From positions 1 to 64,000 of the IMG/VR virus record IMGVR_UViG_3300045118_000377: a stretch of DNA of 64,000 nucleotides; one strand, given 5' to 3'. A program made the translations under genes and the position numbers. Shown in pieces: positions 1 to 39,809 of this stretch (positions are counted from its first letter, which is position 1; every line of letters starts with the position of its first letter). The notes below the pieces were generated by a model that was given only the letters and a program-made list of their open reading frames with translations, was not told where the DNA came from and made no database searches. This DNA is from a virus.

Positions 1-1080
1 GTTGGCCGACGGCTTGACCTTCCAGCAGACGGCAGGACGGTCGGGGTCTCCCTGGAAGTTGAGGCTGCGCTCGCCCAGGGGCTTGTCTCGCCTGTAGATC
101 ACAAACCCCTCGTAGCCGTGCTCGTCAAGCTGGGCCATGGCGTCTTCGTAGCTGCCTTCGAACGCCACGATCCCCATGATGTTGTCGCAGTCCATGAACC
201 CGACCTGCTGCCCGGCGGGCAGGACGGGGTCCTCCCAGCCCTCGTGAAGGGCCTCGATGAACTCGATCCAGGAGCTGCAGTTGCTCGAGAACTCCATCCG
301 CGCCCCCTTCCAGTAGGGGTTGCGGTAGACGTACGCCTGGACGAGGCCTAGCTGCTTCTGCTTGCGCAGCGCCTCCTCCGGCAGGCTGTTGGCGATCTGC
401 TGCATCATGCTGAAGTCCTTCTTGCCGCGGCCGTTGCCCATGAAGAACTCGGCGAGGAAGATCGACTCCGGCGGTAGAAGCGCGTCGAACTCCTCGACCA
501 GGTGTGGGAACTGGTCGTTGCAGACCTTCATCTTGCCGCGGCTCTGGATCCAGACCTTGTCGTGCTTGTCCTTGCTCACGACGTAGCCCATGCCGTTGAC
601 CTTGATCGTCCAGACGATCTTGGGACCTCCGATGATCTCCGCCTCCTCCGCCAGCATGTTGAGCAGGATGCCGTGGTCGATGGAGTTCACGGGCTTGGAG
701 AAGCACAGGTTCTGCGGAAGCGGCCCGTCGAAGTTCACCTCTTGGCCAGTCTGGTACTTGGAGATCTCGGCCTCGGCGCTGGCCTTCATCCAGCCGCTGA
801 GCTCGTTCAAGAGCTTGTAGCCCTCGCGGGCCTTCTTGCTGATGTCCCGGATGACCTGGTCCCTGGCCGACTGCTTGGCATCGACGTAGCCCTTGGTGCC
901 GGGCTTGCCCTTCGGGCCTGGCGTGTCGCGGGTCTCCCGCATCTTGCCGTTCTGCACGCCCCACTGGGTCACGACCTCTTCGCCCTCGACCCATGAGCGC
1001 CAGATCCTCCATCCATCCTTCCCTTGTTGTCTCATTTCTATGAAACAACTTTTTGGATCACTCATCTTATGTTTGGTCAT
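1..1080 (-). CDS. ATP-dependent DNA ligase with N-terminal WGR-like domain (partial, runs off the left edge)
   Basis: Not in the ORF track because it has no stop in the window. My translation from ATG 1080 reads MTKHKMSDPK...WRIWRSWVEGEEVVTQWGVQNGK (WGR-like), then nucleotidyltransferase motifs I TIKVNG, III FLAEFF, IV GYEGFVIY and V CWKVKP. Confidence 0.8.
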   Translation of the reverse strand, partial: MTKHKMSDPKSCFIEMRQQGKDGWRIWRSWVEGEEVVTQWGVQNGKMRETRDTPGPKGKPGTKGYVDAKQSARDQVIRDISKKAREGYKLLNELSGWMKASAEAEISKYQTGQEVNFDGPLPQNLCFSKPVNSIDHGILLNMLAEEAEIIGGPKIVWTIKVNGMGYVVSKDKHDKVWIQSRGKMKVCNDQFPHLVEEFDALLPPESIFLAEFFMGNGRGKKDFSMMQQIANSLPEEALRKQKQLGLVQAYVYRNPYWKGARMEFSSNCSSWIEFIEALHEGWEDPVLPAGQQVGFMDCDNIMGIVAFEGSYEDAMAQLDEHGYEGFVIYRRDKPLGERSLNFQGDPDRPAVCWKVKPSAN

Positions 1081-1600
1081 CTGATCCTTCTCCTGGGAGA
1101 TTGAGCGCGGCGAAAGCTCCATATAACTCACGCGCAGCAGCATCATAAGCTTTTGCTGCAGCAAGCTCGTCCTCGAATAGTCCGAGGTATCTGGGTGTCG
1201 GTGCTGTGATCTGAGCCGCCCATTTGCGTGCTGCTTTGTGCCAGTACACGCCGTGGAATCTAGATGATCCTACCCGTTTGTGGATCCTGTTACGCTGATT
1301 TTGTGTGTGGGTAGCTGCTCTGAGATTCTGCCTCTGATTGTTCAAACCGTCCCCATCCTTGTGATCCACTTGGTCGACTTGACCAAGTAGAGCGCGATGC
1401 ATGTAGACCGTCTTCCTGGATCCATTCACATCCTTGGTTGCTGTGCGCACAGCATACCAAGTAGACCTTCCACGAACAGCGCGCCATTTGTAGTTGATCA
1501 ATTTATCGTAGTCTTCATCATTCACAAGAGCGACCTGTCCTTGTGTCAGGGGAATCTTTCGCACAGGTTCTCCTTTCACGAAGTCAACTTCTGGTTTCAT
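1067..1600 (-). CDS. HNH-AP2 homing-type endonuclease
   Basis: IPLTQGQVALV...VYMHR...VDHKDGDGLNNQRQNLR (HNH) followed by SRFHGVYWHK...KWAAQI...YLGLF...AAKAYDAAARELYGAFAALN (AP2). AT-richer than its flanks. Start placed at ATG 1600, just after a -10 box. Confidence 0.9.
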   Translation of the reverse strand: MKPEVDFVKGEPVRKIPLTQGQVALVNDEDYDKLINYKWRAVRGRSTWYAVRTATKDVNGSRKTVYMHRALLGQVDQVDHKDGDGLNNQRQNLRAATHTQNQRNRIHKRVGSSRFHGVYWHKAARKWAAQITAPTPRYLGLFEDELAAAKAYDAAARELYGAFAALNLPGEGSDDQT

Positions 1601-1606
1601 GAAGTC

Positions 1607-1636
1607 CTTATACCCGTGCCCGGCAGGTTCTTGCAA
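1607..1636 (-). promoter_or_regulatory. sigma70-like promoter TTGCAA-N18-TATAAG, probably giving a leaderless HNH-AP2 mRNA
   Basis: Reverse complement of 1607-1636. ATG lies 6 nt after the -10 box and there is no SD. Confidence 0.6.
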
Positions 1637-1653
1637 TCCGATCTTCAAGCTAA

Positions 1654-1677
1654 GAAGAGCGCGTAGTGCTGCTCTTC
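1654..1677 (-). terminator. Hairpin terminator after ORF 1687-2037
   Basis: GAAGAGC...GCTCTTC stem followed by TTAGCTT on the minus strand. Confidence 0.45.
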
Positions 1678-1686
1678 GTCCGGGCG

Positions 1687-2037
1687 CTACAGCTCATAGC
1701 CATATCCCTGCGGCGGGTCCTCGTAGAAACACTCAACGATCTCTTCTACAGCCACTGGGATACCACTTCGCTTGTGCCGATCGCAGCAGTACTGCCATCG
1801 CTTGTACGCGCGCGCGATGCGCGCGTACCACACGTCGAAGTCCGGGTGGGTGTCAGCGTACGCGCCACCCGCGGCCGCGAACCCCAGCTCCTGCAACTCT
1901 CCCATCTCTAGGGGAACGTTCCTCATGAGGAACGTTCCGATGGCGGCCAAGATCTCCATCTGGCCGCGGTTGCTCGCTTGCTTGGCGATCTCCTGGAAGA
2001 ACCGTTTGACTGGGTCGGCATTCCTCTTCTTAGCCAT
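1687..2037 (-). CDS. Hypothetical protein (116 aa)
   Basis: Clean ORF with an AAGGAG SD and its own upstream promoter motif. Confidence 0.75.
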   Translation of the reverse strand: MAKKRNADPVKRFFQEIAKQASNRGQMEILAAIGTFLMRNVPLEMGELQELGFAAAGGAYADTHPDFDVWYARIARAYKRWQYCCDRHKRSGIPVAVEEIVECFYEDPPQGYGYEL

Positions 2038-2064
2038 AAACGATCTCCTTTCTTGGTTACTGAT

Positions 2065-2094
2065 CTTATCCCCTACGGGTGATCGGTTTTGCAG
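2065..2094 (-). promoter_or_regulatory. Repeated phage promoter motif CTGCAA-N18-GATAAG
   Basis: Near-duplicate at 14113-14148. Same architecture at 6543-6572 and 15262-15302. Confidence 0.65.
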
Positions 2095-2096
2095 CT

Positions 2097-2119
2097 AAAA
2101 AGAGCCCGTTGCGGGCTCT
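2097..2119 (-). terminator. Intrinsic terminator closing the RAMP/array operon
   Basis: Minus strand reads AGAGCCCG-CAA-CGGGCTCT-TTTT. Confidence 0.8.
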
Positions 2120-2120
2120 A

Positions 2121-3596
2121 GTACAGGTAGGTTGGGTGACCAGTGCTGGTCGGCGCGATCGATTTCGTCGATCGGCCAGCAGCGTATCGCGCGAGCGGGT
2201 TACAGCTTGTCAGCCGGCGCGGGAAGGCGTGGCCATCGTCGCGACTGGACCAGTCTCGTCAGATGACACGACCCGAGGCGTACTGATCCTGCTTGTCACC
2301 AGACTTGGATCACGTAGTGATGGCTCGTCTGGTGGAAGGCGCAGAGCGGCATCGGCCCGCATTGTCATTCGGCTTGCGGATCGAAAGGGCAGCTCCGGGG
2401 TAGGGTTGTCGCCGGGCTTGCAGAGTCCGGTAGGGGCGCAGCTTGTCAGCTGTTGTGTTGGGACGGCCGTACTGTCACGCGAACTGTCTGAGGAGAGGCC
2501 GTCACTCGGTAGGGTGGTCCAGGGAAAGCATCGGCATGTCACATGCCGCGATCCGAGAGGTCGTGAGTGGTGCTAGCTTGTCACTTGACAAGGATCGTCG
2601 CGCGATGAGTGGACTCGTCGTTCGTAGCGAGAAGGATGAGTACGGTCTGGTGCGAAACGTCGCTCGGCAGGGGTGACCGGGAGGCAGGGTTGCCAGAGCT
2701 TGTCGAATGAGCGAACTGCGTGGAGTTGGGTTGCGATGTCTCGGGGCAGGGATGGGTTCCCGCACGATCTGGACGCGGTGCAGCTTGTCAGCTGGATCGT
2801 TAGGGCTGGTACGTCACTTGGCAAGAGCTCGTCGATTGCGATGGCTCGAGCCGAATGATCGCGTAGGGACAAGAGTCGGCTCGTCGCTGGGCCTGAGTGG
2901 AGCGCCGAGACCGGTGAAGGGTAGTCGTGCGGATAGGACAGTCTTTGAACGTCGGCAGGCCAGATCCGAGCAGACTGGTCTTGTCGCTCGACGCGTCACG
3001 GTGCGGCATGCAAAGCCACGTCATTTGCAGTGTGCAGCGAGGAGAAGCGATCCGTCGATCGACTAGGTCAGGGAGACGTGTCATCGGGGTCAGCAGGCCA
3101 CGAGAAAGCTCGTCGCACGGGCAGATACGGTACATGAAGACGCAGCTGGACTCGTCGACCGCGGCGGGAAGGCTTGCCCGAAAGGACAAGGCAGTAGGCT
3201 CGGGTAGTCATCTGACCTGGTATGCTCAATGAGGTCGCATGCAGCGACCCGCTTCGATCACGACTCGACTCGTCACATGGCCCGCAACGCCAAGGGTCGC
3301 TATGCACAAGCTCGTCGCGCGGTAGAGAAAGGTTCAAGCTGATCCAACACGTCCGCTGTCGAGGGTTGGCGAACCTAGTCCCGTGATACGGCTTGTGATG
3401 TCACGCTCAGACATGGCTCGTCGTGCGGCTCACGTCGATCTCGCGTGGACCAGTCGCAGGAATTGGTGGGGAGCGATGCAACTGATCTTGGCGGCGGGTA
3501 GTCGGCAGAATCGATCGGTCCAAGGAGGAATAGTCGGTGGTTGCGAGAAGAGCGGGAGGGTCGCTGGTACTGAGATCGTTAGAGGTTCGGCTTGTC
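2121..3596 (-). ncRNA. 5-nt-periodic array of about 40 non-identical units, GA(CNNNN)n; putative guide-RNA array
   Basis: Plus-strand units are (NNNNG)nTC, e.g. 2330-2366 tggtG gaagG cgcaG agcgG catcG gcccG cattG tc; 2954-2985 ggcaG gccaG atccG agcaG actgG tcttG tc; 2986-3022; 2583-2619; 3536-3562. Common lengths are 27, 32, 37, 42 and 52 nt. Unit ends are often GCTTGTC or GCTCGTC. No credible CDS. The pattern is observed; RNA function is inferred. Confidence 0.75.
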
Positions 3597-3604
3597 TACC
3601 TGCC

Positions 3605-3862
3605 CTAGCGATCAGGTTCCTTCAGCGACTCTCCCCAGGTGAGAACCTCGGCTGGTAGGGCCGTGGCGCTCACGTCCCATTTGGCTCCTTCGTCCAACCG
3701 CGGCATGGCCAGCAGGAGGTCGGAGATACGATTCTCCACCACCCGCTGGCTGGGAATGTTCTCGCCCATCGGCGCTCGCACGTAGACCCGTATGCAGATG
3801 TCGTAGTGGCCGGCGTCCCCGACGTACCGTGCGGGGACATCACCATCAGGTCGGGTCTTCAT
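3605..3862 (-). CDS. Hypothetical protein (85 aa), last ORF before the array
   Basis: Overlaps the upstream ORF; stop codon lies 8 nt before the first array unit. Confidence 0.6.
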   Translation of the reverse strand: MKTRPDGDVPARYVGDAGHYDICIRVYVRAPMGENIPSQRVVENRISDLLLAMPRLDEGAKWDVSATALPAEVLTWGESLKEPDR

Positions 3863-4316
3863 GTGCCTTCTCCAGCTTTTTGGCAGCCTCCACCACCGCG
3901 TCCCAGGTGTTGCCTCCCTCTATGCCATTGGCGCTGATGGCCAACCACCAGCCACCAAACTCGCCCGCGCGGGGTTTGGAACACGTGCCGGCTCCGGTCA
4001 TGGTGAAGATCTGCGTCGGTCGGAAGCGGCGAAGGAACGCCTGGACGAACCAGATCAGGTGATTCTCATCGAACTGATCCTCCGCATACAGGTGCAGCCG
4101 TTTGTGCTTGGTGTCATTGTAGATAGACCACTCGAAGTTCGGCCAGTTGTCCAGCGCGTCGGGCTCGAGGTCGACCTCGAGCCCTAGGGCGTCGTAGACC
4201 TTCATCACCTCCTCATCGGTCTCGGTGGGCATCCGGAGGATCTCGTTGACCCACTTGTCTTCGCGCTTCTTGATCTTGTCGATGACTTCGCTGAATTGGG
4301 AATAGCTGTCAGCCAT
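3846..4316 (-). CDS. Hypothetical protein (156 aa)
   Basis: Coupled ORF with SD and genome-typical codon usage. Confidence 0.75.
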   Translation of the reverse strand: MADSYSQFSEVIDKIKKREDKWVNEILRMPTETDEEVMKVYDALGLEVDLEPDALDNWPNFEWSIYNDTKHKRLHLYAEDQFDENHLIWFVQAFLRRFRPTQIFTMTGAGTCSKPRAGEFGGWWLAISANGIEGGNTWDAVVEAAKKLEKAHEDPT

Positions 4317-4650
4317 CGGTCTTCTCCCTCTCTGGATGTCCGACCCAGCCGGCAGGGTCTTCCTGGGCGCAGTCGGAGAACGGGCAGGTCTCGTCCGGGC
4401 AGCGGCCGTCCTTCAAGGACGCCCCGCACCTGGCGCAATGGATCTCCTGCAGGAGTTTGATGTCGTCGTTGGTCGTGCCGTCCGGCATGTCGTGCAGACT
4501 GACCCACACCCACGCCTGGACGTAGAGCCCGTCGTCGGGCGGGTCGGCGATGGAGAACTTGGTCTCATCGTCGATCTCGATGTCGCCATCCTCTTGGTAC
4601 TTGGATCGAGCGACATCGATCACGGTCTGTTTCAGCTCGTCCTTGGTCAT
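4309..4650 (-). CDS. Hypothetical protein with C-terminal Cys cluster
   Basis: CARC...CPDETCPFSDC; ATGA overlap with the upstream gene. Confidence 0.7.
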   Translation of the reverse strand: MTKDELKQTVIDVARSKYQEDGDIEIDDETKFSIADPPDDGLYVQAWVWVSLHDMPDGTTNDDIKLLQEIHCARCGASLKDGRCPDETCPFSDCAQEDPAGWVGHPEREKTDG

Positions 4651-4862
4651 GACCTCCTCCTCCTCCGGAGTTTGCGCACATGGTGAATCACGTTGTCACG
4701 GGTGAACTCCATGTCCTCCTCGAGCAGCTCCATGATCTCGTTGTGCATTCGCTGTCGTCCCTCACGGAAGCCGCGCATGAAGGAGTCGGCATCGAAACGT
4801 CCCAACAGCTTCTCCACGCCCGTGAGGAAGTCCTGACGGCTCATGACTCTGGACTTGGGCAT
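4647..4862 (-). CDS. Hypothetical protein (71 aa)
   Basis: Coupled to the upstream gene by a TGATG overlap. Confidence 0.65.
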   Translation of the reverse strand: MPKSRVMSRQDFLTGVEKLLGRFDADSFMRGFREGRQRMHNEIMELLEEDMEFTRDNVIHHVRKLRRRRRS

Positions 4863-5137
4863 CAGTCGCTCTCCGGCTCGGGCTCCGGCCCCACGCGGTC
4901 GTAGGGCTCTTGGGACTCCTCCTCCTCCTCATCCTCGTCCACGTCCACGTTGCTCTTCAGGGTCGACTCGATGGAGTCGAGGTCGTAGCCCTGGCTGAGC
5001 AAGTAGTCGATCTGCGCGGTCGTGCCGGAGTTGTTGATGTCGGTCGCCTCATTCGACTTCATGTCGTGGACCTCGCCATCCAGCGCATCACTCAGGTGGT
5101 GCTTCTCGGCGTAGGCGATCAGCTGTTCGCGGGTCAT
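4862..5137 (-). CDS. Acidic hypothetical protein (91 aa)
   Basis: Coupled ORF with a D/E-rich C-terminus. Confidence 0.7.
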   Translation of the reverse strand: MTREQLIAYAEKHHLSDALDGEVHDMKSNEATDINNSGTTAQIDYLLSQGYDLDSIESTLKSNVDVDEDEEEEESQEPYDRVGPEPEPESD

Positions 5138-5376
5138 GTGCCCTCCTTCTCGTCGATGTCAGCGCGCGAGATGCGGTTGGGATTGAAGTAGACGTTGACG
5201 TAGACGATGTTCCTCCAGGTGCCGTCGGAGGCCGGCTCCATCTCGTGGATCTCTGGCAGGGCCGCCTGCAACGTCTTCAGAGCTTCGTCCTCGCTGTCGG
5301 CCTCGACCTCCGCGCAGAAGCCGACCGGCCCGTCATCCGAGTCTCCCAGGCTGAAGTGGTACCTAGCCTTCGGCAT
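5134..5376 (-). CDS. Hypothetical protein (80 aa)
   Basis: Coupled ORF with a VEADSEDEA motif. Confidence 0.7.
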   Translation of the reverse strand: MPKARYHFSLGDSDDGPVGFCAEVEADSEDEALKTLQAALPEIHEMEPASDGTWRNIVYVNVYFNPNRISRADIDEKEGT

Positions 5377-5602
5377 AGCTGCACCTGATATCGACCTCGT
5401 TGTCGTTCTCGTCGAACACCGGGCCGTCCCAGATGAACATCAGCGGCCGGCTATGCTCGTCGTCCACCGTGAACGGGTGGTCCTCCTGGTTGAGCCGGTT
5501 GCACTCCGGTGTGAAGATGGCGAGCAGCGCCTCGACGTTCGCAGCCTCGATGATGACCGAGCCGGGATGGCAGATGTCCCCCATCAGTCTGTACTTGGGC
5601 AT
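5363..5602 (-). CDS. Hypothetical protein (79 aa)
   Basis: Starts 3 nt after the RAMP gene stop. Confidence 0.7.
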   Translation of the reverse strand: MPKYRLMGDICHPGSVIIEAANVEALLAIFTPECNRLNQEDHPFTVDDEHSRPLMFIWDGPVFDENDNEVDIRCSYAEG

Positions 5603-5605
5603 GGG

Positions 5606-6460
5606 CTACTCCTCTGCCTCGGCATCCGCCTTCTTGCCCTTGCCGGCCGTGCGCGCCTTCTTCTCGTAGATCGGGGTCTCGACCTTGGCCGTCTGCTTCA
5701 TGCCCACGATCTCCACGCGCCCGAAGCCCTGGCTGCGGCTCGCGCCCCACCCGTTGTCCTGGCAGAGGGTGAGGAAGAAGACGAGGTCCTTCTCGCTGAC
5801 CTTCACGGTGTTGCCGGATGCCGCGCGCCGGAGCTCGAACTTGAACTCGGCACCGGGGGCCACGTACTCGTGGATCTTGATGGTGGAGCGCGGACCCTGC
5901 GGGCCGGTGATGTGGGCGACCATGGTCTCGGTGCCATCGGGCCCCTTCAGGATCTTGCCGTCGCGGTAGAAGAAGATGGCGTCGGGGTGATCGATGCCGC
6001 GGGCGAACATCGCGTGCTGGATGACCTGCTTGGAACCCCAGTCGCTGACGGTCTTGCCCAGGGTCGTGGCAGCCTCACGCAATCCGGCCTTGATCTGCCT
6101 GCTCTCCACGAAGATGGCCCCGCGGAAGGGCTCGAGCGTCGGGTCCTGCGCGATGCGGTCGTCGTCCACGACCTTGAACACGCACGTGCTCTTGTCGCTG
6201 GCGGCCTCGGTCTCGACCGCCGGGTCCTTGGTGGCGGCCTCCGCGATGCGAGCCTTGGCGGCGTCCACCACCTCCTGGGTGACCAGCCCCTTGCGGGCGC
6301 GGGCCTCGAGCATGGCGAGCTCGGCCTCGGCGTTCTTGGGCCAGCCGGCGAGCATCTTGTTCGCCGTCTGGCAGGTGATGACCCACTTCTCGTAGAGCTG
6401 GTCGGCCCCGTACTTCTTCATGAGCTCCTGGAAGCTGTTGACTGGTCCGGTCTTGTCCAT
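5606..6460 (-). CDS. Solo Cas7/Csm3-like RAMP-superfamily protein (284 aa)
   Basis: IFVESRQIKAGLREAA resembles the group-7 RAMP 'iPgSslKGalR' segment. HEYVAPGAEFKFEL matches 'E.v..g..f.f.l'. C-terminal Gly-rich loop GWGASRSQGFGRVEI. AAGGAG SD. No other cas genes in the window. Confidence 0.8.
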   Translation of the reverse strand: MDKTGPVNSFQELMKKYGADQLYEKWVITCQTANKMLAGWPKNAEAELAMLEARARKGLVTQEVVDAAKARIAEAATKDPAVETEAASDKSTCVFKVVDDDRIAQDPTLEPFRGAIFVESRQIKAGLREAATTLGKTVSDWGSKQVIQHAMFARGIDHPDAIFFYRDGKILKGPDGTETMVAHITGPQGPRSTIKIHEYVAPGAEFKFELRRAASGNTVKVSEKDLVFFLTLCQDNGWGASRSQGFGRVEIVGMKQTAKVETPIYEKKARTAGKGKKADAEAEE

Positions 6461-6510
6461 GACACACTCCTTGTTGTGCGACCTCAGTCGCTGAATGGGG
6501 ATCTGAAGGA

Positions 6511-6572
6511 CTTATATCAACGATCCGAGTGGAATTCGTAGCCCGAAAGGACTGCGATTTCCTTGGGATAAG
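6511..6572. promoter_or_regulatory. Divergent promoter pair
   Basis: Minus strand TACGAA-N18-TATAAG (6540-6511) faces the RAMP operon. Plus strand CCGAAA-N18-GATAAG (6543-6572) faces the small-ORF cluster. Confidence 0.55.
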
Positions 6573-6591
6573 AAACTACAAGGAGGTCAAC

Positions 6592-6807
6592 ATGGCTTTG
6601 ATCGAGATCTTCGTGGGCATGCCGTTGGACAACTTCCAGCGCCTGGCCAAGACCGACAAGAAGGCGGCCGCGGTCGCGTTGAAGGACGAGCTCAAATCGT
6701 TCAACGCCTACCTCGAGAGTCAGCGGATGGATCCGATGGGGCGCATCGAGGAGTCGATCGTCCGCGAGTACATCGGCTGGAAGCTGATGGAGCGAAAGGA
6801 TGGCTGA
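6592..6807 (+). CDS. Hypothetical protein
   Basis: AAGGAGG SD before ATG 6592. Confidence 0.7.
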   Translation: MALIEIFVGMPLDNFQRLAKTDKKAAAVALKDELKSFNAYLESQRMDPMGRIEESIVREYIGWKLMERKDG

Positions 6808-15261: not shown

Positions 15262-15302
15262 TCTTATAACCTGCAAAAACGATCGGTTTGCAGGTAATAA
15301 GA
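15262..15302. promoter_or_regulatory. Palindromic bidirectional promoter element
   Basis: TCTTATAACCTGCAAAAACGATCGGTTTGCAGGTAATAAGA, between divergent genes that each carry CAAGAAAGGAG before ATG. Confidence 0.7.
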
Positions 15303-27381: not shown

Positions 27382-29343
27382 ATGGGTCGCAGCATCTTCA
27401 GGCAGGACACGCAGGTCAGGAAGTCGGTGACGTACTCCTCGGCCACCTTGCCGAGCCTGGCCAACTACCAGACCAACCCCGTCAGCTTGGAAGACGACAT
27501 GAACGTCCTCCGTTCTGCGCACCATCTGGTGCTCAAGAACCAGGCGGGGAACTGGTACGACGATCTCAACGTGCCTTCGGCGCTGGAAACAGGTGTCAAG
27601 AGAGGCGTCAACGATCTCAACACCGCTCTCCACGCGGTCGAGAAGAAGCGTGTCCTCCGCGATGTCTGGAAGCTCACGGACATCTACCCCGGTCTCGACC
27701 TGGCGATCCTTCTGGTCAACGACCTGAAGGCCAAGTACGAGGCGCATCGCGTCCTGATCGCCGGCAGTGTCCACGGGGCGGCGGACAACACCAACGCGGT
27801 CACGGCTCCCAACGCGACCAGTCTCGCCACGGCCAACACGTTGGCGAACGACATCAAGACTCAGTACAACGCTCACCGTGTCCTCACCACGGGCGGTGTC
27901 CACGGAGCGGCGGATACGACCAACGTCGTCACCTCGGCGAACGCGACCGATCTCGCCACTCTGATCACCCTCGTCAATGAGATGAGGACGGACTACGAGG
28001 CGCACCGAGTCCTCACTTCTGGGGGAGTCCACGGGGCCTCGGACACCACGAACACGATCTCTGCCCTGGCGGTGGGTTCGACTACACAGGTTCACGTCCT
28101 GACGGCGGCTCAGCTTCCGACCCAGACCACGGCAGCCATTGGCGCTGTCACGACGCTGGGTACGGTCGCTGCGACGGCGACCACCTTCGGCACGGCTGGG
28201 TTGGATGAGGTGGTTGGTTCGACAGCTGTGTCTCCAAAGAACCTGATGCCGCTCGTCGACGCCGACAACCACCTCGATCCGATCATGATTGGCGGCAAGC
28301 AGCTCTTTGGTCTGTTCCAGACAGAGAGTGCCACCGATGGGTCCACCATGACGGGGACCACGCCAAACCGAGCGCAGATCTCGTTTGTGGTGCGCAACAA
28401 CACGGGTGATGATCTGGAGCTGGCAACGGTTCCAGTCACTCAGGGATTCAACTTCGCGTCTCGCGAGCGAGTGAGGCTCGAAGATCTCAACGAGCAAGAC
28501 TTCCTCAAGGGAGTCATCATCGAGTTCCCGTCGGCAACTACCGTCACTCGTCAGGTCGCCTACAACAACCAGGGTGTCACTCCGGTCGAGATGGGCACCA
28601 ACTCCTATCTTGATCTGGCAACCGGCCTCGAGTGGGATATCCGCGATAACCTCAATGCGATCCTGCTCAAGGTCTTGGAAGGATCCGCAGGTGGAACCAG
28701 CGAGGTCCAGGTTGCAGCCGATGTCGATGTGTTCAACATCGATGCGGTGCTGAACGACTTCCTCAATGGCATCAAGGTAGACACCGGAGCGGCGGGTACC
28801 ACAATCCAGATCGGTATGACTGCCAACCAGATCGATTCCGGTGGCGTTCTCAAGGTCGCTTCTGGAGGAGGAGCCGATCTGTCCCTGGCGGCGGCTCTCG
28901 AGCTGAACCTTACGGACTCCTACCGAGGAGGTTCCACCTGGAGCCTTGCGGACGGTATCAACTTGGCCGCCAGCTCAGCTGAGTGGTCTGCTTTCGAGAC
29001 TGCGTTCGGTGAGGTCTCCCTCATGAACGCCATCGTGCAGGCCAAGAGCGCTGCCTACCGTCGGCGTGTCTTTGCTGTGGCTACTGCGAATGTCAACGCT
29101 GACAATGACATCAGCGGCCCAGCCAACGACAACAACCTTGATGCCAACCTCGGAGATCTGTCCGCCGGCACCTTCACCGATGACTACGATCTGTACCTCA
29201 ATGGGCAGTACCTTCGCCCCGGTGCCAACTTCTCCGCGAACCACGACTTCTACCCCGGTACCTCTCTGGCTAACGGACAGATTCGGTTCGAGTTCAAGAT
29301 GCACACGGGCGATCAGCTTTGCTTGATCGACCGCACAGCTTAG
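27382..29343 (+). CDS. Virion structural protein with three 43-aa repeats
   Basis: Three copies of YxAHRVLxxGxVHGAxDxTN; C-terminal LYLNGQYL...DFY domain. Confidence 0.65.
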   Translation: MGRSIFRQDTQVRKSVTYSSATLPSLANYQTNPVSLEDDMNVLRSAHHLVLKNQAGNWYDDLNVPSALETGVKRGVNDLNTALHAVEKKRVLRDVWKLTDIYPGLDLAILLVNDLKAKYEAHRVLIAGSVHGAADNTNAVTAPNATSLATANTLANDIKTQYNAHRVLTTGGVHGAADTTNVVTSANATDLATLITLVNEMRTDYEAHRVLTSGGVHGASDTTNTISALAVGSTTQVHVLTAAQLPTQTTAAIGAVTTLGTVAATATTFGTAGLDEVVGSTAVSPKNLMPLVDADNHLDPIMIGGKQLFGLFQTESATDGSTMTGTTPNRAQISFVVRNNTGDDLELATVPVTQGFNFASRERVRLEDLNEQDFLKGVIIEFPSATTVTRQVAYNNQGVTPVEMGTNSYLDLATGLEWDIRDNLNAILLKVLEGSAGGTSEVQVAADVDVFNIDAVLNDFLNGIKVDTGAAGTTIQIGMTANQIDSGGVLKVASGGGADLSLAAALELNLTDSYRGGSTWSLADGINLAASSAEWSAFETAFGEVSLMNAIVQAKSAAYRRRVFAVATANVNADNDISGPANDNNLDANLGDLSAGTFTDDYDLYLNGQYLRPGANFSANHDFYPGTSLANGQIRFEFKMHTGDQLCLIDRTA

Positions 29344-37177: not shown

Positions 37178-39809
37178 GACAGGGCGGTTGCTTCCAGCCA
37201 AGGGCGAATTCGCTCCAGGCATTCCGAAATCAAGAACGATCAGACCTCTGCCGCCGGTGCCGCGCGGCCAGCCCCAGCAGTGGGAGCTCGCCACTCAGCT
37301 CCACCACGCAGAGAAGGCCGGTCCGCACACCGACCTCCGCCTGGTAGATCCCGAAGGCCACGCCCACAGCTGGGTGCTGCCCGACACCGGCCTCCCAAAA
37401 CCGGGTGAAAAATTCTACCTCCCGCAGGTCGAGACCCACACGCGGGAGTACGCCGCGCGCAAGGGCGAGTTCGAGCTGCCGGCTGGCTATGGCAAAGGGA
37501 CCGTGACCGGCTCGGGCCTGCGCCCGGTAGACGTCCATTACAGTGAGCCTGGAAAGCTCCGTTTCAGCCTGTTGGAAGGCAAAAACCCTCAAGATTACAT
37601 ACTGGTACGGTCACCCAAGGGGTGGGTTATCCACAACTTTTCACCGACAGCGGAAGCGGGTGTGCGTGGATCGAAGGGTTTCGCCATCCCGCAGGCGAAG
37701 CCAGCGTACAAGGAAAAGCCAACAACTTCGGTGGAGTTCGACGACCCGAGGGTGATCCATCAGGCCAAGATCGACGGCGCGCACGTGACCGTCCACATCC
37801 CGAACAAGGACAGCCAGGTCCGGGTGTTCTCCTACCGCCCGACCGAGGCTGGGACCGGGGTCATCGAGCATACCCACAAGTTGCCCTCGTACCACACGCT
37901 GCGTGCCCCTGGGAGCCTCGCTGGCACCGTTCTCCGCGGTGAGGCATGGGCGGCAGGCCCGGACGGCAAGGCGCTGCCAGCGGAGCGTATAGGCGGCCTC
38001 CTGAACGCGGGCGTGGCCCGTTCCAGAGAGCTCCAGCAGGAGCATGGCCCCCTACGCCTGTCGGTCTTTGACGTGGTGCGGCACAAGGGCAAGCTCATGG
38101 AGAACGCCCCCTACGCCGAGAAGCTCGAGGTGCTCCGGCAGGTGGCGAAGGAGATGCCCCAGCTCGAGCTCCCGCCCACGGCCGAGACGCCGGAGGAGAA
38201 GCTCAAGCTCTTCACTCGCATCCAGGAAGGGAAGGAGCCGGTCACCCGAGAGGGGATCGTGGCCTGGCATCTGGACCGGCCACTGCCAACCAAGATCAAG
38301 TTCCGACCTGATGTTGATGCCGAGGTCGTGGGAGTGTTTCCAGGTAAGGGGAAGCACGAAGGACGAGCCGGTGGGCTGGTGGTGAAGCTGCCGGGGTCCG
38401 AGGCTACCACGAGAGTTGGAACTGGCTTCTCCGATCAGATGCGCAAGGAGCTGTGGGAGAGACAGCACGAGATCGTGGGGCGCGTGGCGCGTGTGGCGAC
38501 TCAGCAGGTGTTCCCGAGCGGCAAGATGCGGGCACCGGCGTTCAAGGACTTCCACACGGAGAAGGGCAAGATCGCTTCGGGCAGGCACAGAGTCGAACAT
38601 CTCACTACGGATGAAGAGAAGCTGGAAGCTGCTAAGTTGCAAGAAGGGATCGGTTTCGGACTTGGCCCGATCAAGCCATTGCATCCCAAGTGGGAGTATT
38701 ACGGCATTCGTAGTGACGACAACAAGCTGGTTGCTGTGAGCCGAGTCAACAAAGAGCCGTTGAAGGAGTGGGAAGGTTCAAAGGACTACGAGCAGATCGC
38801 TCGGCACAGGCCGGATGTATCTATCTCGGCCACTACCGTCCACCCGGAACATCGCAGGAAGGGCATGGCAAAAGCTCTCCGAGCTCACGTCCAGGATCGA
38901 TACAACACGATCATATCTGGTACCGGGGCAGAGTCAGACCTACCAGCTATGTCTAGGATCTTGGAGCAACAGGGGTTCGAGCCTATTTGGCACCGTGGGG
39001 CGAACACGCAGTACGTGTGGAAGAAGCAGGCAATGCTCGAGGCCCTAAAGGATGAACTGAACAAGGTCGCGGCTCCTGATATCAGCCCCGCGCAAGAAGT
39101 GGTTCCAGACCCTGCTCAAGATCGCCCATCGCTTGTTGGCGGCATCGCTGCGACTGGCGGCGGCACGTTGCTGGCGGCCGATATGAGAAAGCGGTTGCTT
39201 GGCGAGAAAGTAATCTACCACGGCACACATTCGGATGAAGCCGCAAAAGGGATCATGGAGCATGGGCTCCAACCTTCGTACGGTGGCACGGGGGCAGCGA
39301 AGCTGACGCCAAACTATGTAGCGCGTAGCAAAGGAAAGGTGCACGTCACGGGCGTTAAGCCTGTTGCGATGATGTTCCGATCGTTCGACCCAGAGACCTA
39401 TCGTCGTGAGGGTTACGATATCGGACACCTCGTGCGCGGGAACTTGCCTGGGGCACCAGGCACGGTGGTCAAAGCGCGCATCCCGATGTCCCTTTGGGAC
39501 AAGTTAGAGATCGATCCAGACATGCTGGGACATACCCCGCAGAACGAACTTCAAGAGGCCATGATCAAGGAGATCGGAGCTCGTGGGGCGCACCCCATCG
39601 AGTCGAAGTACATCAGTGGGGGCCGTGGCAGTATCAGTCGAATCCCCGAAAAGATCGTGGAACTCGGGAGGGAGTTGCCTGGCTATGTCAAGAGACACCC
39701 TCTGCGTTTCGGGGTTGGAGCGCTTGGAACAGCCGGGGGTCTCTATCTTGCCGGCAGGGGAATAGGATCTCTGCGTAGAAGATTCTCCACGCCTACTGAG
39801 GAAGGATAG
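37158..39809 (+). CDS. Polyprotein: LigD-type 3'-phosphoesterase + ATP-dependent DNA ligase + GNAT + ADP-ribosyltransferase-like domain
   Basis: PE: QLHHA..GPHTDLRL..HSWVLP..ETH..GYG. Ligase: KIDG, LRGE, VFD, EGIV, KFR, and OB-fold VGTGFSD. GNAT: VHPEHRRKGMA. ART-like: IYHGT...IMEHGLQP. C-terminal Gly-rich hydrophobic helix. Confidence 0.75.
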   Translation: MPLGDRKTGRLLPAKGEFAPGIPKSRTIRPLPPVPRGQPQQWELATQLHHAEKAGPHTDLRLVDPEGHAHSWVLPDTGLPKPGEKFYLPQVETHTREYAARKGEFELPAGYGKGTVTGSGLRPVDVHYSEPGKLRFSLLEGKNPQDYILVRSPKGWVIHNFSPTAEAGVRGSKGFAIPQAKPAYKEKPTTSVEFDDPRVIHQAKIDGAHVTVHIPNKDSQVRVFSYRPTEAGTGVIEHTHKLPSYHTLRAPGSLAGTVLRGEAWAAGPDGKALPAERIGGLLNAGVARSRELQQEHGPLRLSVFDVVRHKGKLMENAPYAEKLEVLRQVAKEMPQLELPPTAETPEEKLKLFTRIQEGKEPVTREGIVAWHLDRPLPTKIKFRPDVDAEVVGVFPGKGKHEGRAGGLVVKLPGSEATTRVGTGFSDQMRKELWERQHEIVGRVARVATQQVFPSGKMRAPAFKDFHTEKGKIASGRHRVEHLTTDEEKLEAAKLQEGIGFGLGPIKPLHPKWEYYGIRSDDNKLVAVSRVNKEPLKEWEGSKDYEQIARHRPDVSISATTVHPEHRRKGMAKALRAHVQDRYNTIISGTGAESDLPAMSRILEQQGFEPIWHRGANTQYVWKKQAMLEALKDELNKVAAPDISPAQEVVPDPAQDRPSLVGGIAATGGGTLLAADMRKRLLGEKVIYHGTHSDEAAKGIMEHGLQPSYGGTGAAKLTPNYVARSKGKVHVTGVKPVAMMFRSFDPETYRREGYDIGHLVRGNLPGAPGTVVKARIPMSLWDKLEIDPDMLGHTPQNELQEAMIKEIGARGAHPIESKYISGGRGSISRIPEKIVELGRELPGYVKRHPLRFGVGALGTAGGLYLAGRGIGSLRRRFSTPTEEG

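What the first reader, a model, noticed from the sequence alone, without database searches (positions are those of the whole stretch)
2121..3596. Grammar of the array: (NNNNG)nTC units with quantised 5n+2 lengths
Splitting at GTC gives units whose G recurs every fifth base, and the register resets by 2 nt at each boundary. Examples: 2170-2211 (42), 2261-2297 (37), 2298-2329 (32), 2330-2366 (37), 2411-2447 (37), 2541-2582 (42), 2583-2619 (37), 2620-2661 (42), 2834-2885 (52), 2927-2953 (27), 2954-2985 (32), 2986-3022 (37), 3115-3156 (42), 3275-3316 (42), 3536-3562 (27). The other four positions differ between units, so repeat finders would miss it. On the minus strand units often begin GACAAGC or GACGAGC, a possible handle or processing site. 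Some units are off by 1-2 nt (e.g. 2662-2704, 2886-2926, 3237-3274), consistent with decayed or fused units.
Basis: seen in the sequence. Interest (0 to 1): 0.85.

Follow-up and report, generated by a model that had tools for sequence, protein, structure and literature searches.

The report
Phage VIPR guide-RNA array
The 1.5-kb stretch with a fixed base every fifth position is real, and it is the guide-RNA array of a VIPR system (a lone Cas7-like protein plus five-base-repeat guides, first described in 2026 preprints), so it is a further example of a recently described kind, not a new kind.

Summary
Window 2121-3596 is the only sustained 5-nt-periodic stretch in the 95-kb phage contig (G lag-5 z = 5.9). 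It has 240 five-base steps, and 39 of 51 register breaks are +2 nt; 25 of the 28 seven-base steps start with GTC.

This matches VIPR systems (bioRxiv 10.64898/2026.04.26.720920, .720927 and 2026.10.15.759431): a Vipr RAMP protein plus pentanucleotide vrRNAs whose two free bases read DNA while skipping every third base. One guide in a relative (L017) matches rival vipr genes 18/18 under that rule, with the skipped bases at codon wobble positions.

Two points remain open:
- **Transcribed strand.** I favour the gene (minus) strand, about 0.7.
- **Targets.** None were found for this window's own guides.

The scan has already found VIPR-like arrays on other DNA several times. Verdict: new member of a known kind; moderate interest.

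The parts
5606..6460 (-). vipr-like gene: 284-aa stand-alone Cas7/Csm3-fold RAMP protein (P0001), with the G-loop GWGASRSQGFGR near its C-terminus
3605..5602 (-). Seven small, abutting or overlapping ORFs (79, 80, 91, 71, 113, 156 and 85 aa) between the vipr-like gene and the array. They are probably co-transcribed. They are candidate accessory (vap) genes, but their function is unassigned.
   Evidence: ORF list. No Pfam, PADLOC or PHROG match. No relatives next to vipr genes of other loci, and no hhalign link to the conserved upstream neighbours of relatives.
2121..3596 (-). Guide (vrRNA-type) array of about 290 pentamers in about 50 in-register runs of 1-14 pentamers. On the minus strand it reads GA(C N N g h)n; on the + strand, (NNNNG)nTC. 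The two free guide bases are inferred to be minus-strand positions 2-3 of each pentamer. The array starts 9 nt after the stop codon of ORF 3605-3862.
   Evidence: Same grammar next to the homologous gene in about 39 of 48 loci. Guide positions come from the L017 target match.
2095..2119 (-). Intrinsic terminator (8-bp stem, 6 G-C pairs, then TTTTT) on the minus strand, directly after the array
   Evidence: sequence.
6461..6592 (.). Divergent intergenic region upstream of the vipr-like gene. Presumed promoter region of the leftward operon (inferred only).
   Evidence: Sequence. The vipr-like gene is the first gene of the minus-strand block. No consensus promoter was detected.

Best explanation
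The stretch is the guide-RNA array of a phage VIPR-type system.

Inferred transcription unit: a leftward operon (promoter region about 6500, the vipr-like RAMP gene at 6460-5606, seven small ORFs, the array at 3596-2121, and a terminator at 2119-2095) is transcribed as one RNA.

By analogy with the solved SUSP1 complex: Vipr protomers bind one per pentamer. They sequester the fixed spacer bases and expose two free bases per pentamer (minus-strand positions 2-3).

Inferred: the GA linkers break the protein register, so the long RNA is divided or cut into units of roughly 3-11 pentamers.

Shown for a relative's guide here and for SUSP1 in print, inferred for this window: each unit reads double-stranded DNA through its free dinucleotides while skipping every third target base. 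It thereby silences genes of competing phages or other mobile elements.

In this clade the strongly fixed base is a single pyrimidine (C on the gene strand), not the full GGY motif.
For: (1) A Cas7/Csm3-fold protein without CRISPR context lies in the same operon.
(2) A pentamer array sits beside the homologous gene in about 39 of 48 loci. C is always on the gene strand and is 91-99% fixed there. Almost nothing is detected on the opposite strand.
(3) Published VIPR systems have this architecture, including NNNNG-type repeats and tail-less 'staggered' arrays.
[quoted passage not shown] The guide's own vipr gene differs there. The chance of such a hit is about 0.006 over all units tested.
(5) Strand: arrays abut the gene's stop or start codon. 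The gap is 4 nt after the stop in Mae-JY09, and 20-28 nt (RBS only) before the start in L016 and L038. Gene-strand terminators follow the array in the window and in L005, L008, L027 and L046. The phage's own promoter motif occurs only on the minus strand near the array.
(6) In the weak G-loop alignment to SUSP1 Vipr, the Arg that holds the pyrimidine (R179) aligns with the clade-invariant R242. The residues that read the two guanines (D177, W178) are replaced.
Against: No RNA data exist for this phage, so transcription, processing and the strand are inferred.

On the opposite (+) strand the array reads as a degenerate form of the published G-G-Y-N-N motif. The preprint lists NNNNG, not CNNNN, variants.

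A hairpin with a U-rich tail lies on the opposite strand between gene and array in L019-L023, and my terminator scan is mixed overall.

Sequence similarity to the validated SUSP1 Vipr is not significant (hhalign E 0.0019, probability 14%, G-loop region only).

No target was found for any unit of this window. In the small local database (1.7 Mb) the real units do no better than order-shuffled units overall.

The window's array is noisier and has many short runs, so part of it may be decayed.
Confidence: 0.85

Rival explanations
1. Same VIPR system, but the functional guide RNAs come from the + strand, so they are G-periodic (NNNNG)n units ending in GUC and antisense to the vipr operon. The minus-strand read-through transcript would be incidental.
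For: The + strand reads G(0.78-0.99) G/T Y N N, the published GGY/NN order, in the window and in relatives. The preprint names NNNNG repeats. L004 carries canonical GGC/NN arrays and a (CNNNN)n+CGA array side by side, and the latter reads as GGY/NN on the other strand. A hairpin with a U-rich tail lies on the opposite strand in L019-L023, and there are 11 versus 5 terminator-like sites in my scan.
Against: There is no room for an opposite-strand promoter or terminator where arrays abut the vipr start or stop codon. There is a gene-strand terminator and no + strand promoter motif in the window. In validated SUSP1 the vrRNAs are co-directional with vipr. In SUSP1 vrRNAs the second G and the Y are the invariant bases. 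The + strand reading here would instead make the first G invariant.
Confidence: 0.27
2. A decaying array: a once-functional VIPR guide array that is now largely degenerate and no longer supplies working guides.
For: The fixed base is present in only about 78-84% of pentamers, against 91-99% in relatives. Half of the in-register runs have 4 or fewer pentamers. The array lies 2 kb from the vipr gene rather than abutting it. No targets were found.
Against: The vipr-like gene is intact and the operon is compact. The array is nearly identical in lake samples taken from 2018 to 2025, with 7 single-base differences in 1.5 kb over four runs and no indels. The periodicity is still highly significant. 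About 20 runs have 6 or more pentamers.
Confidence: 0.12
3. A DNA-level element: a strand-specific protein-binding array, such as a replication origin or unwinding element or a partition site, read as DNA by the RAMP-like protein.
For: The module lies within 3-5 kb of a DnaB-like helicase in 14 related loci and near exonuclease genes. The 5n+2 units approximate half-integer numbers of helical turns.
Against: The RAMP fold and G-loop are RNA-binding features. Arrays reach 2.8 kb, which is far larger than origins. A guide decodes to a rival gene under the RNA-guide rule. Published VIPR RNAs co-purify with the protein.
Confidence: 0.03
4. A chance or compositional artefact, or a hidden protein-coding gene.
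For: High-GC DNA produces long spurious ORFs.
Against: z = 5.9. The +2 break bias is absent from simulations. The same grammar is conserved beside a homologous gene in phages of 44-71% GC. A period of 5 is incompatible with triplet coding. There is no ORF longer than 165 aa.
Confidence: 0.01

Closest known systems
VIPR systems (Vipr protein + vrRNA), type II exemplar Escherichia phage SUSP1 (KT454805.2; genes 28474-29061 and 28031-28471, minus strand). Sources: bioRxiv 10.64898/2026.04.26.720920, 10.64898/2026.04.26.720927 and 10.64898/2026.10.15.759431.
   Same: Both are phage-encoded with a lone small RAMP protein carrying a G-loop. Both have non-coding tandem pentanucleotide units with fixed spacer bases and two free bases. 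A relative's guide obeys the 1-nt-skip, wobble-aligned code and targets rival vipr genes, a target class also reported in print.
   Different: SUSP1 has four separate vrRNAs of about 100 nt, each with its own flanks and a structured 3' tail, and a strict GGY motif on the gene strand. The window has one 1.5-kb tail-less array of about 50 units separated only by GA. A single fixed base is C on the gene strand. The array lies 2 kb from vipr behind seven unrelated small ORFs, and no recognisable vap gene is present. Protein sequence similarity to SUSP1 Vipr is not significant.
VIPR 'staggered' vrRNA arrays and NNNNG / YNNNG repeat variants (fig. S18 and the type-classification methods of 10.64898/2026.04.26.720920)
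   Same: Both are tail-less arrays in which the end of one guide marks the start of the next, and both have a pentamer motif reduced to one or two fixed bases.
   Different: Only legends and methods text could be read, not the figures or data tables. The type assignment, the strand drawn by the authors, and whether the GA/GAC delimiter and variable linker length are described there are all unknown. The preprint states that only the ribozyme-interspersed and single-vrRNA architectures were checked by sRNA-seq.
Class 1 CRISPR-Cas backbone (Cas7/Csm3 filament on crRNA)
   Different: The step is 5 nt, not 6. There is no repeat-spacer array. No Cas5, Cas6, Cas10 or Cas1-Cas2 was detected among the operon's eight proteins. 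The reported target is dsDNA read discontinuously, and the reported outcome is silencing rather than cleavage.

Membership tests
VIPR system | Non-coding tract of tandem pentanucleotide units next to the vipr gene | tested here: met
   240 five-base steps in 2121-3596, in the same operon 2 kb downstream of the gene. The array is adjacent to the gene in about 39 of 48 related loci.
VIPR system | Repeat consensus GGY/NN (YNNGG) or a listed variant (NNNGG, YNNNG, NNNNG) on the transcribed strand | tested here: inconclusive
   The + strand reads NNNNG (G 0.78) with weak G/T and Y after it. The gene strand reads C N N g h. Which strand is transcribed is not known, so the motif fits only if the + strand is the RNA or if a C-anchored variant is accepted.
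VIPR system | Free dinucleotides specify DNA targets with a 1-nt skip, usually at codon wobble positions, in competing mobile elements | tested here: inconclusive
   Met for a clade member: L017:10821 matches rival vipr genes 18/18 with skips at wobble positions. No target was found for this window's own units in the 1.7-Mb local set, and there was no overall excess over order-shuffled controls there. Public collections were not scanned for the window's units.
VIPR system | vrRNAs are expressed, processed and co-purify with Vipr | not testable with these tools
   No RNA run holds this phage. Operon layout and the terminator are only indirect evidence.
VIPR system | Sequence homology to validated Vipr proteins (the preprint used PSI-BLAST from X1U2U4) | tested here: inconclusive
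   hhalign of 24- and 69-sequence profiles against SUSP1 Vipr gave E 0.7 and 0.0019 (probability 14%), aligning only the strand-helix-G-loop-strand at the C-terminus.
VIPR system | Accessory vap gene beside vipr | tested here: inconclusive
   Seven small ORFs follow vipr, but none matches Pfam, PADLOC or the conserved upstream neighbours of relatives.
CRISPR-Cas (class 1) | Array of identical direct repeats (about 24-40 nt) separated by unique spacers | tested here: not met
   TRF finds nothing. The repeat finder finds only degenerate 14-33-nt families centred on the delimiters.
CRISPR-Cas (class 1) | Multi-subunit effector (Cas5, Cas7, large subunit) and adaptation genes cas1-cas2 | tested here: not met
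   Only the one Cas7-like protein gives a cas match among the eight proteins of the operon. The rest of the contig was not scanned protein by protein.
Hammerhead-interspersed VIPR arrays | Hammerhead ribozymes between guides | tested here: not met
   No Rfam match at E <= 1 in 1500-4500 on either strand. The delimiters are 2 nt long.

The most novel reading that the evidence does not exclude
This large clade (about 1600 protein clusters) uses a reduced, C-anchored version of the VIPR code. Only the pyrimidine pocket of the protein is kept, and the two guanine-reading residues are lost. The guides are made from the vipr mRNA's own untranslated extension on the gene strand. Units are set off by nothing more than 'GA' before the first C, with a linker length that differs between phages (5n+2, 5n+3, 5n+4, or an 8-nt ATTGCAAC-like tag). 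It would be a tail-less multi-guide array, possibly intermediate between VIPR and the CRISPR 5'-handle, and it would mean that the published strand and motif assignment for NNNNG-type arrays is inverted.
Probability: 0.35. Interest if true: 0.65.

Novelty: new member of a known kind. Interest (0 to 1): 0.42.

Why it matters
VIPR is a months-old class, known mainly from one E. coli phage. This locus and its about 39 relatives show how a large, mostly uncultured clade builds long tail-less guide arrays with a minimal delimiter. They also show a guide aimed at rival vipr genes. A cultured member (Microcystis phage Mae-JY09, where the system is unannotated) could be used to settle the transcribed strand and how the guides are processed. 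If the gene-strand reading holds, the recognition motif of VIPR proteins is more plastic than reported, which bears on how guide arrays are called in genomes and on engineering.

Tried and rejected
- blastn of the region and of the first 20 kb against the phage collection: no match.
- Related loci through the flanking small proteins and the spurious 444-aa + strand ORF: none.
- Rfam and tRNA scans: nothing.
- Sequencing runs: no RNA holder listed.
- Contigs of four lake-water DNA runs laid on 1600-6700 show 7 single-base differences inside the array and no indels. One low-identity contig joins 2634 to 3865 with 26 foreign letters; it is probably another organism and was not interpreted.
- Local target search (1.7 Mb): for units of 7 or more pentamers there is no excess over order-shuffled units apart from the L017 guide, and nothing for the window's units.
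- Their 14-18 specified bases would give tens of chance hits under exact matching.
- RNA folding of either strand is no more stable than shuffles (z -0.17 and -0.06), so it is not a structured RNA.
- Terminator scan at array ends in relatives: mixed, not decisive for the strand.
- Sigma-70 promoter scan: none. The phage's TGCAA-N-ATAAG motif is absent on the + strand near the array.
- hhalign of the seven small ORFs against conserved neighbours of relatives: nothing.
- Early ideas dropped: a T7-type primase site cluster (GTC), a TRAP- or Rho-type RNA sponge, and a 5-nt-per-subunit nucleocapsid signal. They were superseded by the RAMP link. Microcystis also lacks Rho, though that rests on my own knowledge.

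Full report
**Setting.** The window is the first 64 kb of a 95.5-kb IMG/VR virus contig from lake water. It is a largely novel tailed phage: PHROG hits go only to a tail protein and a ligase. The finding lies between two minus-strand ORFs.

**Observation.**
- G recurs at lag 5 far more than in simulations (1.27; z 5.9). This is the only such stretch in the contig.
- An EM-trained cyclic HMM gives a + strand pentamer of [not C][C .48][A/T][C .39][G .78].
- Along the Viterbi path there are 240 five-base steps. Of 51 register breaks, 39 add exactly 2 nt. Of the 28 seven-base steps, 25 start with GTC. Simulated sequences spread their breaks evenly.
- Tandem Repeats Finder sees nothing.
However, cutting at every GTC gives only a weak mod-5 peak, because many GTCs lie in register.

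**Context in the window.**
- The array begins 9 nt after the stop codon of ORF 3605-3862 (minus).
- It ends at an intrinsic terminator on the minus strand (2119-2095).
- A copy of the phage's TGCAA-N-ATAAG promoter-like motif follows for the next gene.
- Upstream, seven abutting small ORFs lead back to ORF 5606-6460 (minus).
- PADLOC Csm3 models match weakly (E 4.5e-5). A profile search finds 1600 representative clusters.

**Relatives.**
- A profile-guided scan of IMG/VR returned 47 loci that encode a relative. tblastn found one cultured phage, Microcystis phage Mae-JY09.
- In most of these loci the strongest 5-nt periodicity of the +/-10 kb lies directly beside the gene.
- A generic HMM calls an array on the gene strand in about 39 of 48 loci, and almost never on the other strand.
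- There the grammar is much cleaner: C at position 1 in 91-99% of pentamers, G favoured at position 4, G avoided at position 5. Units have mostly 6-7 pentamers.
- Over 4802 five-base steps there are 663 other steps. Of these, 358 are three-base steps, and 282 of those read CGAC. Others read CCGAC or xxxxGAC. The constant is 'GA' before the first C of a unit, and the linker length differs by lineage. The window's 5n+2 is its own variant.
- L002 instead uses an 8-nt (A/T)TTGCAAC delimiter, and L034 uses TCTGACWACCCGA.
- Related phages share units in different orders.

**Literature.** The search found three 2026 preprints on VIPR systems.
- The first (10.64898/2026.04.26.720920) describes phage-encoded ancestral RAMP proteins with vrRNAs of 9-16 YNNGG repeats. 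The NN bases read dsDNA with a one-base skip that usually falls on codon wobble positions. The result is silencing of competing phages, satellites and even other VIPR systems.
- It defines seven types, alternative repeats (NNNGG, YNNNG, NNNNG), and 'staggered' tail-less arrays as well as ribozyme-interspersed ones.
- The second (…720927) gives structures. One protomer binds per repeat. G1 is read by H17 and D177, G2 by R138 and W178, and Y3 sits in a purine-excluding pocket with R179.
- The third (2026.10.15.759431) shows the system at work against a satellite and lists vipr genes among target classes.
- I located the SUSP1 locus in KT454805.2. Its vrRNAs read (GGTNN)n plus a hairpin tail on the gene strand.

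**Test of the code.**
- I took positions 2-3 of each gene-strand pentamer as the free bases and scanned 1.7 Mb (all loci plus the contig).
- One 9-pentamer unit, L017:10821, matched 18/18 in the vipr genes of L039, L047 and L008, and 16-17/18 in eight more.
- The match is antisense to the codons for LAERVFV(D/E)E, with every skipped base at a wobble position. L017's own gene reads LAERVFCEE there.
- The chance of one perfect 18-base hit over all 244 units tested is about 0.006.
- The local set is otherwise too small. Real units of 7 or more pentamers do no better than order-shuffled ones, and no unit of the window found a target.

**Which strand is the RNA?** The target test cannot tell, because the decoded dsDNA site is the same for either strand.

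For the gene (minus) strand:
- The orientation is strictly conserved whether arrays lie upstream or downstream of the gene.
- Arrays abut the coding sequence. The gap is 4 nt after the stop in Mae-JY09, followed by a distal hairpin. In L016 and L038 only an RBS separates the array from the start codon, and in L016 the array fills the whole gap to the preceding co-directional gene.
- Gene-strand terminators follow the array in the window and in L005, L008, L027 and L046.
- SUSP1 vrRNAs are co-directional with vipr.
- In the weak G-loop alignment, the pyrimidine-holding Arg is invariant in this clade, while the two guanine-reading residues are replaced. This fits a motif in which only the pyrimidine stays fixed.

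For the + strand:
- It reads as a degenerate G-G-Y-N-N motif.
- The preprint lists NNNNG repeats.
- L004 has both array kinds on one strand.
- L019-L023 have an opposite-strand terminator-like hairpin.

I put the gene strand at about 0.7.

**Other checks.**
- Neither strand folds better than shuffles, and there is no Rfam family. This fits a protein-coated linear guide RNA.
- The array is nearly invariant in lake metagenomes from 2018 to 2025.
- The seven small ORFs have no detectable relatives beside other vipr genes, so no vap gene is assigned.
- DnaB-like helicases lie 3-5 kb away in 14 loci. I read these as neighbouring replication genes.

**Verdict.** The element is a VIPR-type guide array with its Vipr-like gene in the same operon. 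The class is already in print, and this scan has met it repeatedly on other DNA, so this is a new member of a known kind. The strand and motif question, the GA delimiter with lineage-specific linker length, and the cultured Mae-JY09 example are the parts worth following up.

Noticed in passing
L017:10821-10865; targets L039:10427-10452, L047:7732-7757, L008:4152-4177: A guide in one phage's array decodes (free bases 2-3, 1-nt skip) to a perfect 18/18 match in the conserved LAERVFV(D/E)E codons of rival phages' vipr genes. Its own vipr gene differs there (LAERVFCEE).
   Followed up: yes
L049 (Microcystis phage Mae-JY09, PP395641.1) record 37713-38459 and 38463-38849: A cultured cyanophage carries an unannotated VIPR-like module. 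The gene is annotated as a 'hypothetical protein' (WWT39994.1). A 390-nt (CNNNN)n/CGA array starts 4 nt after the stop codon, followed by a strong hairpin near the end of the record.
   Followed up: partly
L004:5045-5228, 5930-6074, 6095-6150: One locus has canonical (NNGGC)n arrays on the gene strand upstream and downstream of vipr, and also a (CNNNN)n+CGA array on the same strand between them. Either there are two guide classes, or arrays lie on both strands.
   Followed up: partly
L002:10566-10986; L034:8250-8800; L016:9336-9933: Some relatives use longer delimiters between pentamer units: (A/T)TTGCAAC (7 of 8 bases of the ATTGAAAC-type CRISPR 5' tag, from my own knowledge), TCTGACWACCCGA, and CTTCGAC. 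These arrays look like repeat-spacer arrays with very short repeats.
   Followed up: no
window 1607-1635(-), 2065-2093(-), 15263-15292(-), 15272-15301(+): The promoter-like motif TGCAA-N15-21-ATAAG occurs 4 times (0.18 expected), including an overlapping inverted pair at 15263-15301.
   Followed up: partly
window 1067-1648 (-): ORF with HNH_3 (E 6e-7) and weak AP2 domains, a likely homing endonuclease, two genes downstream of the array.
   Followed up: no
window 5207-6541 (+): A 444-aa ORF antisense to the vipr-like gene, acidic and of low complexity, with no relatives. It is probably a spurious high-GC ORF.
   Followed up: partly
window 2634 / 3865 (run X6): One 316-nt metagenome contig, at 85-90% likeness, joins 2634 to 3865 with 26 unrelated letters between them. 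It could be a related strain with a different array, or a chimera.
   Followed up: no
L003, L015, L017 (locus ends): Several viral contigs end inside the pentamer array, which suggests that assemblies tend to break there.
   Followed up: no
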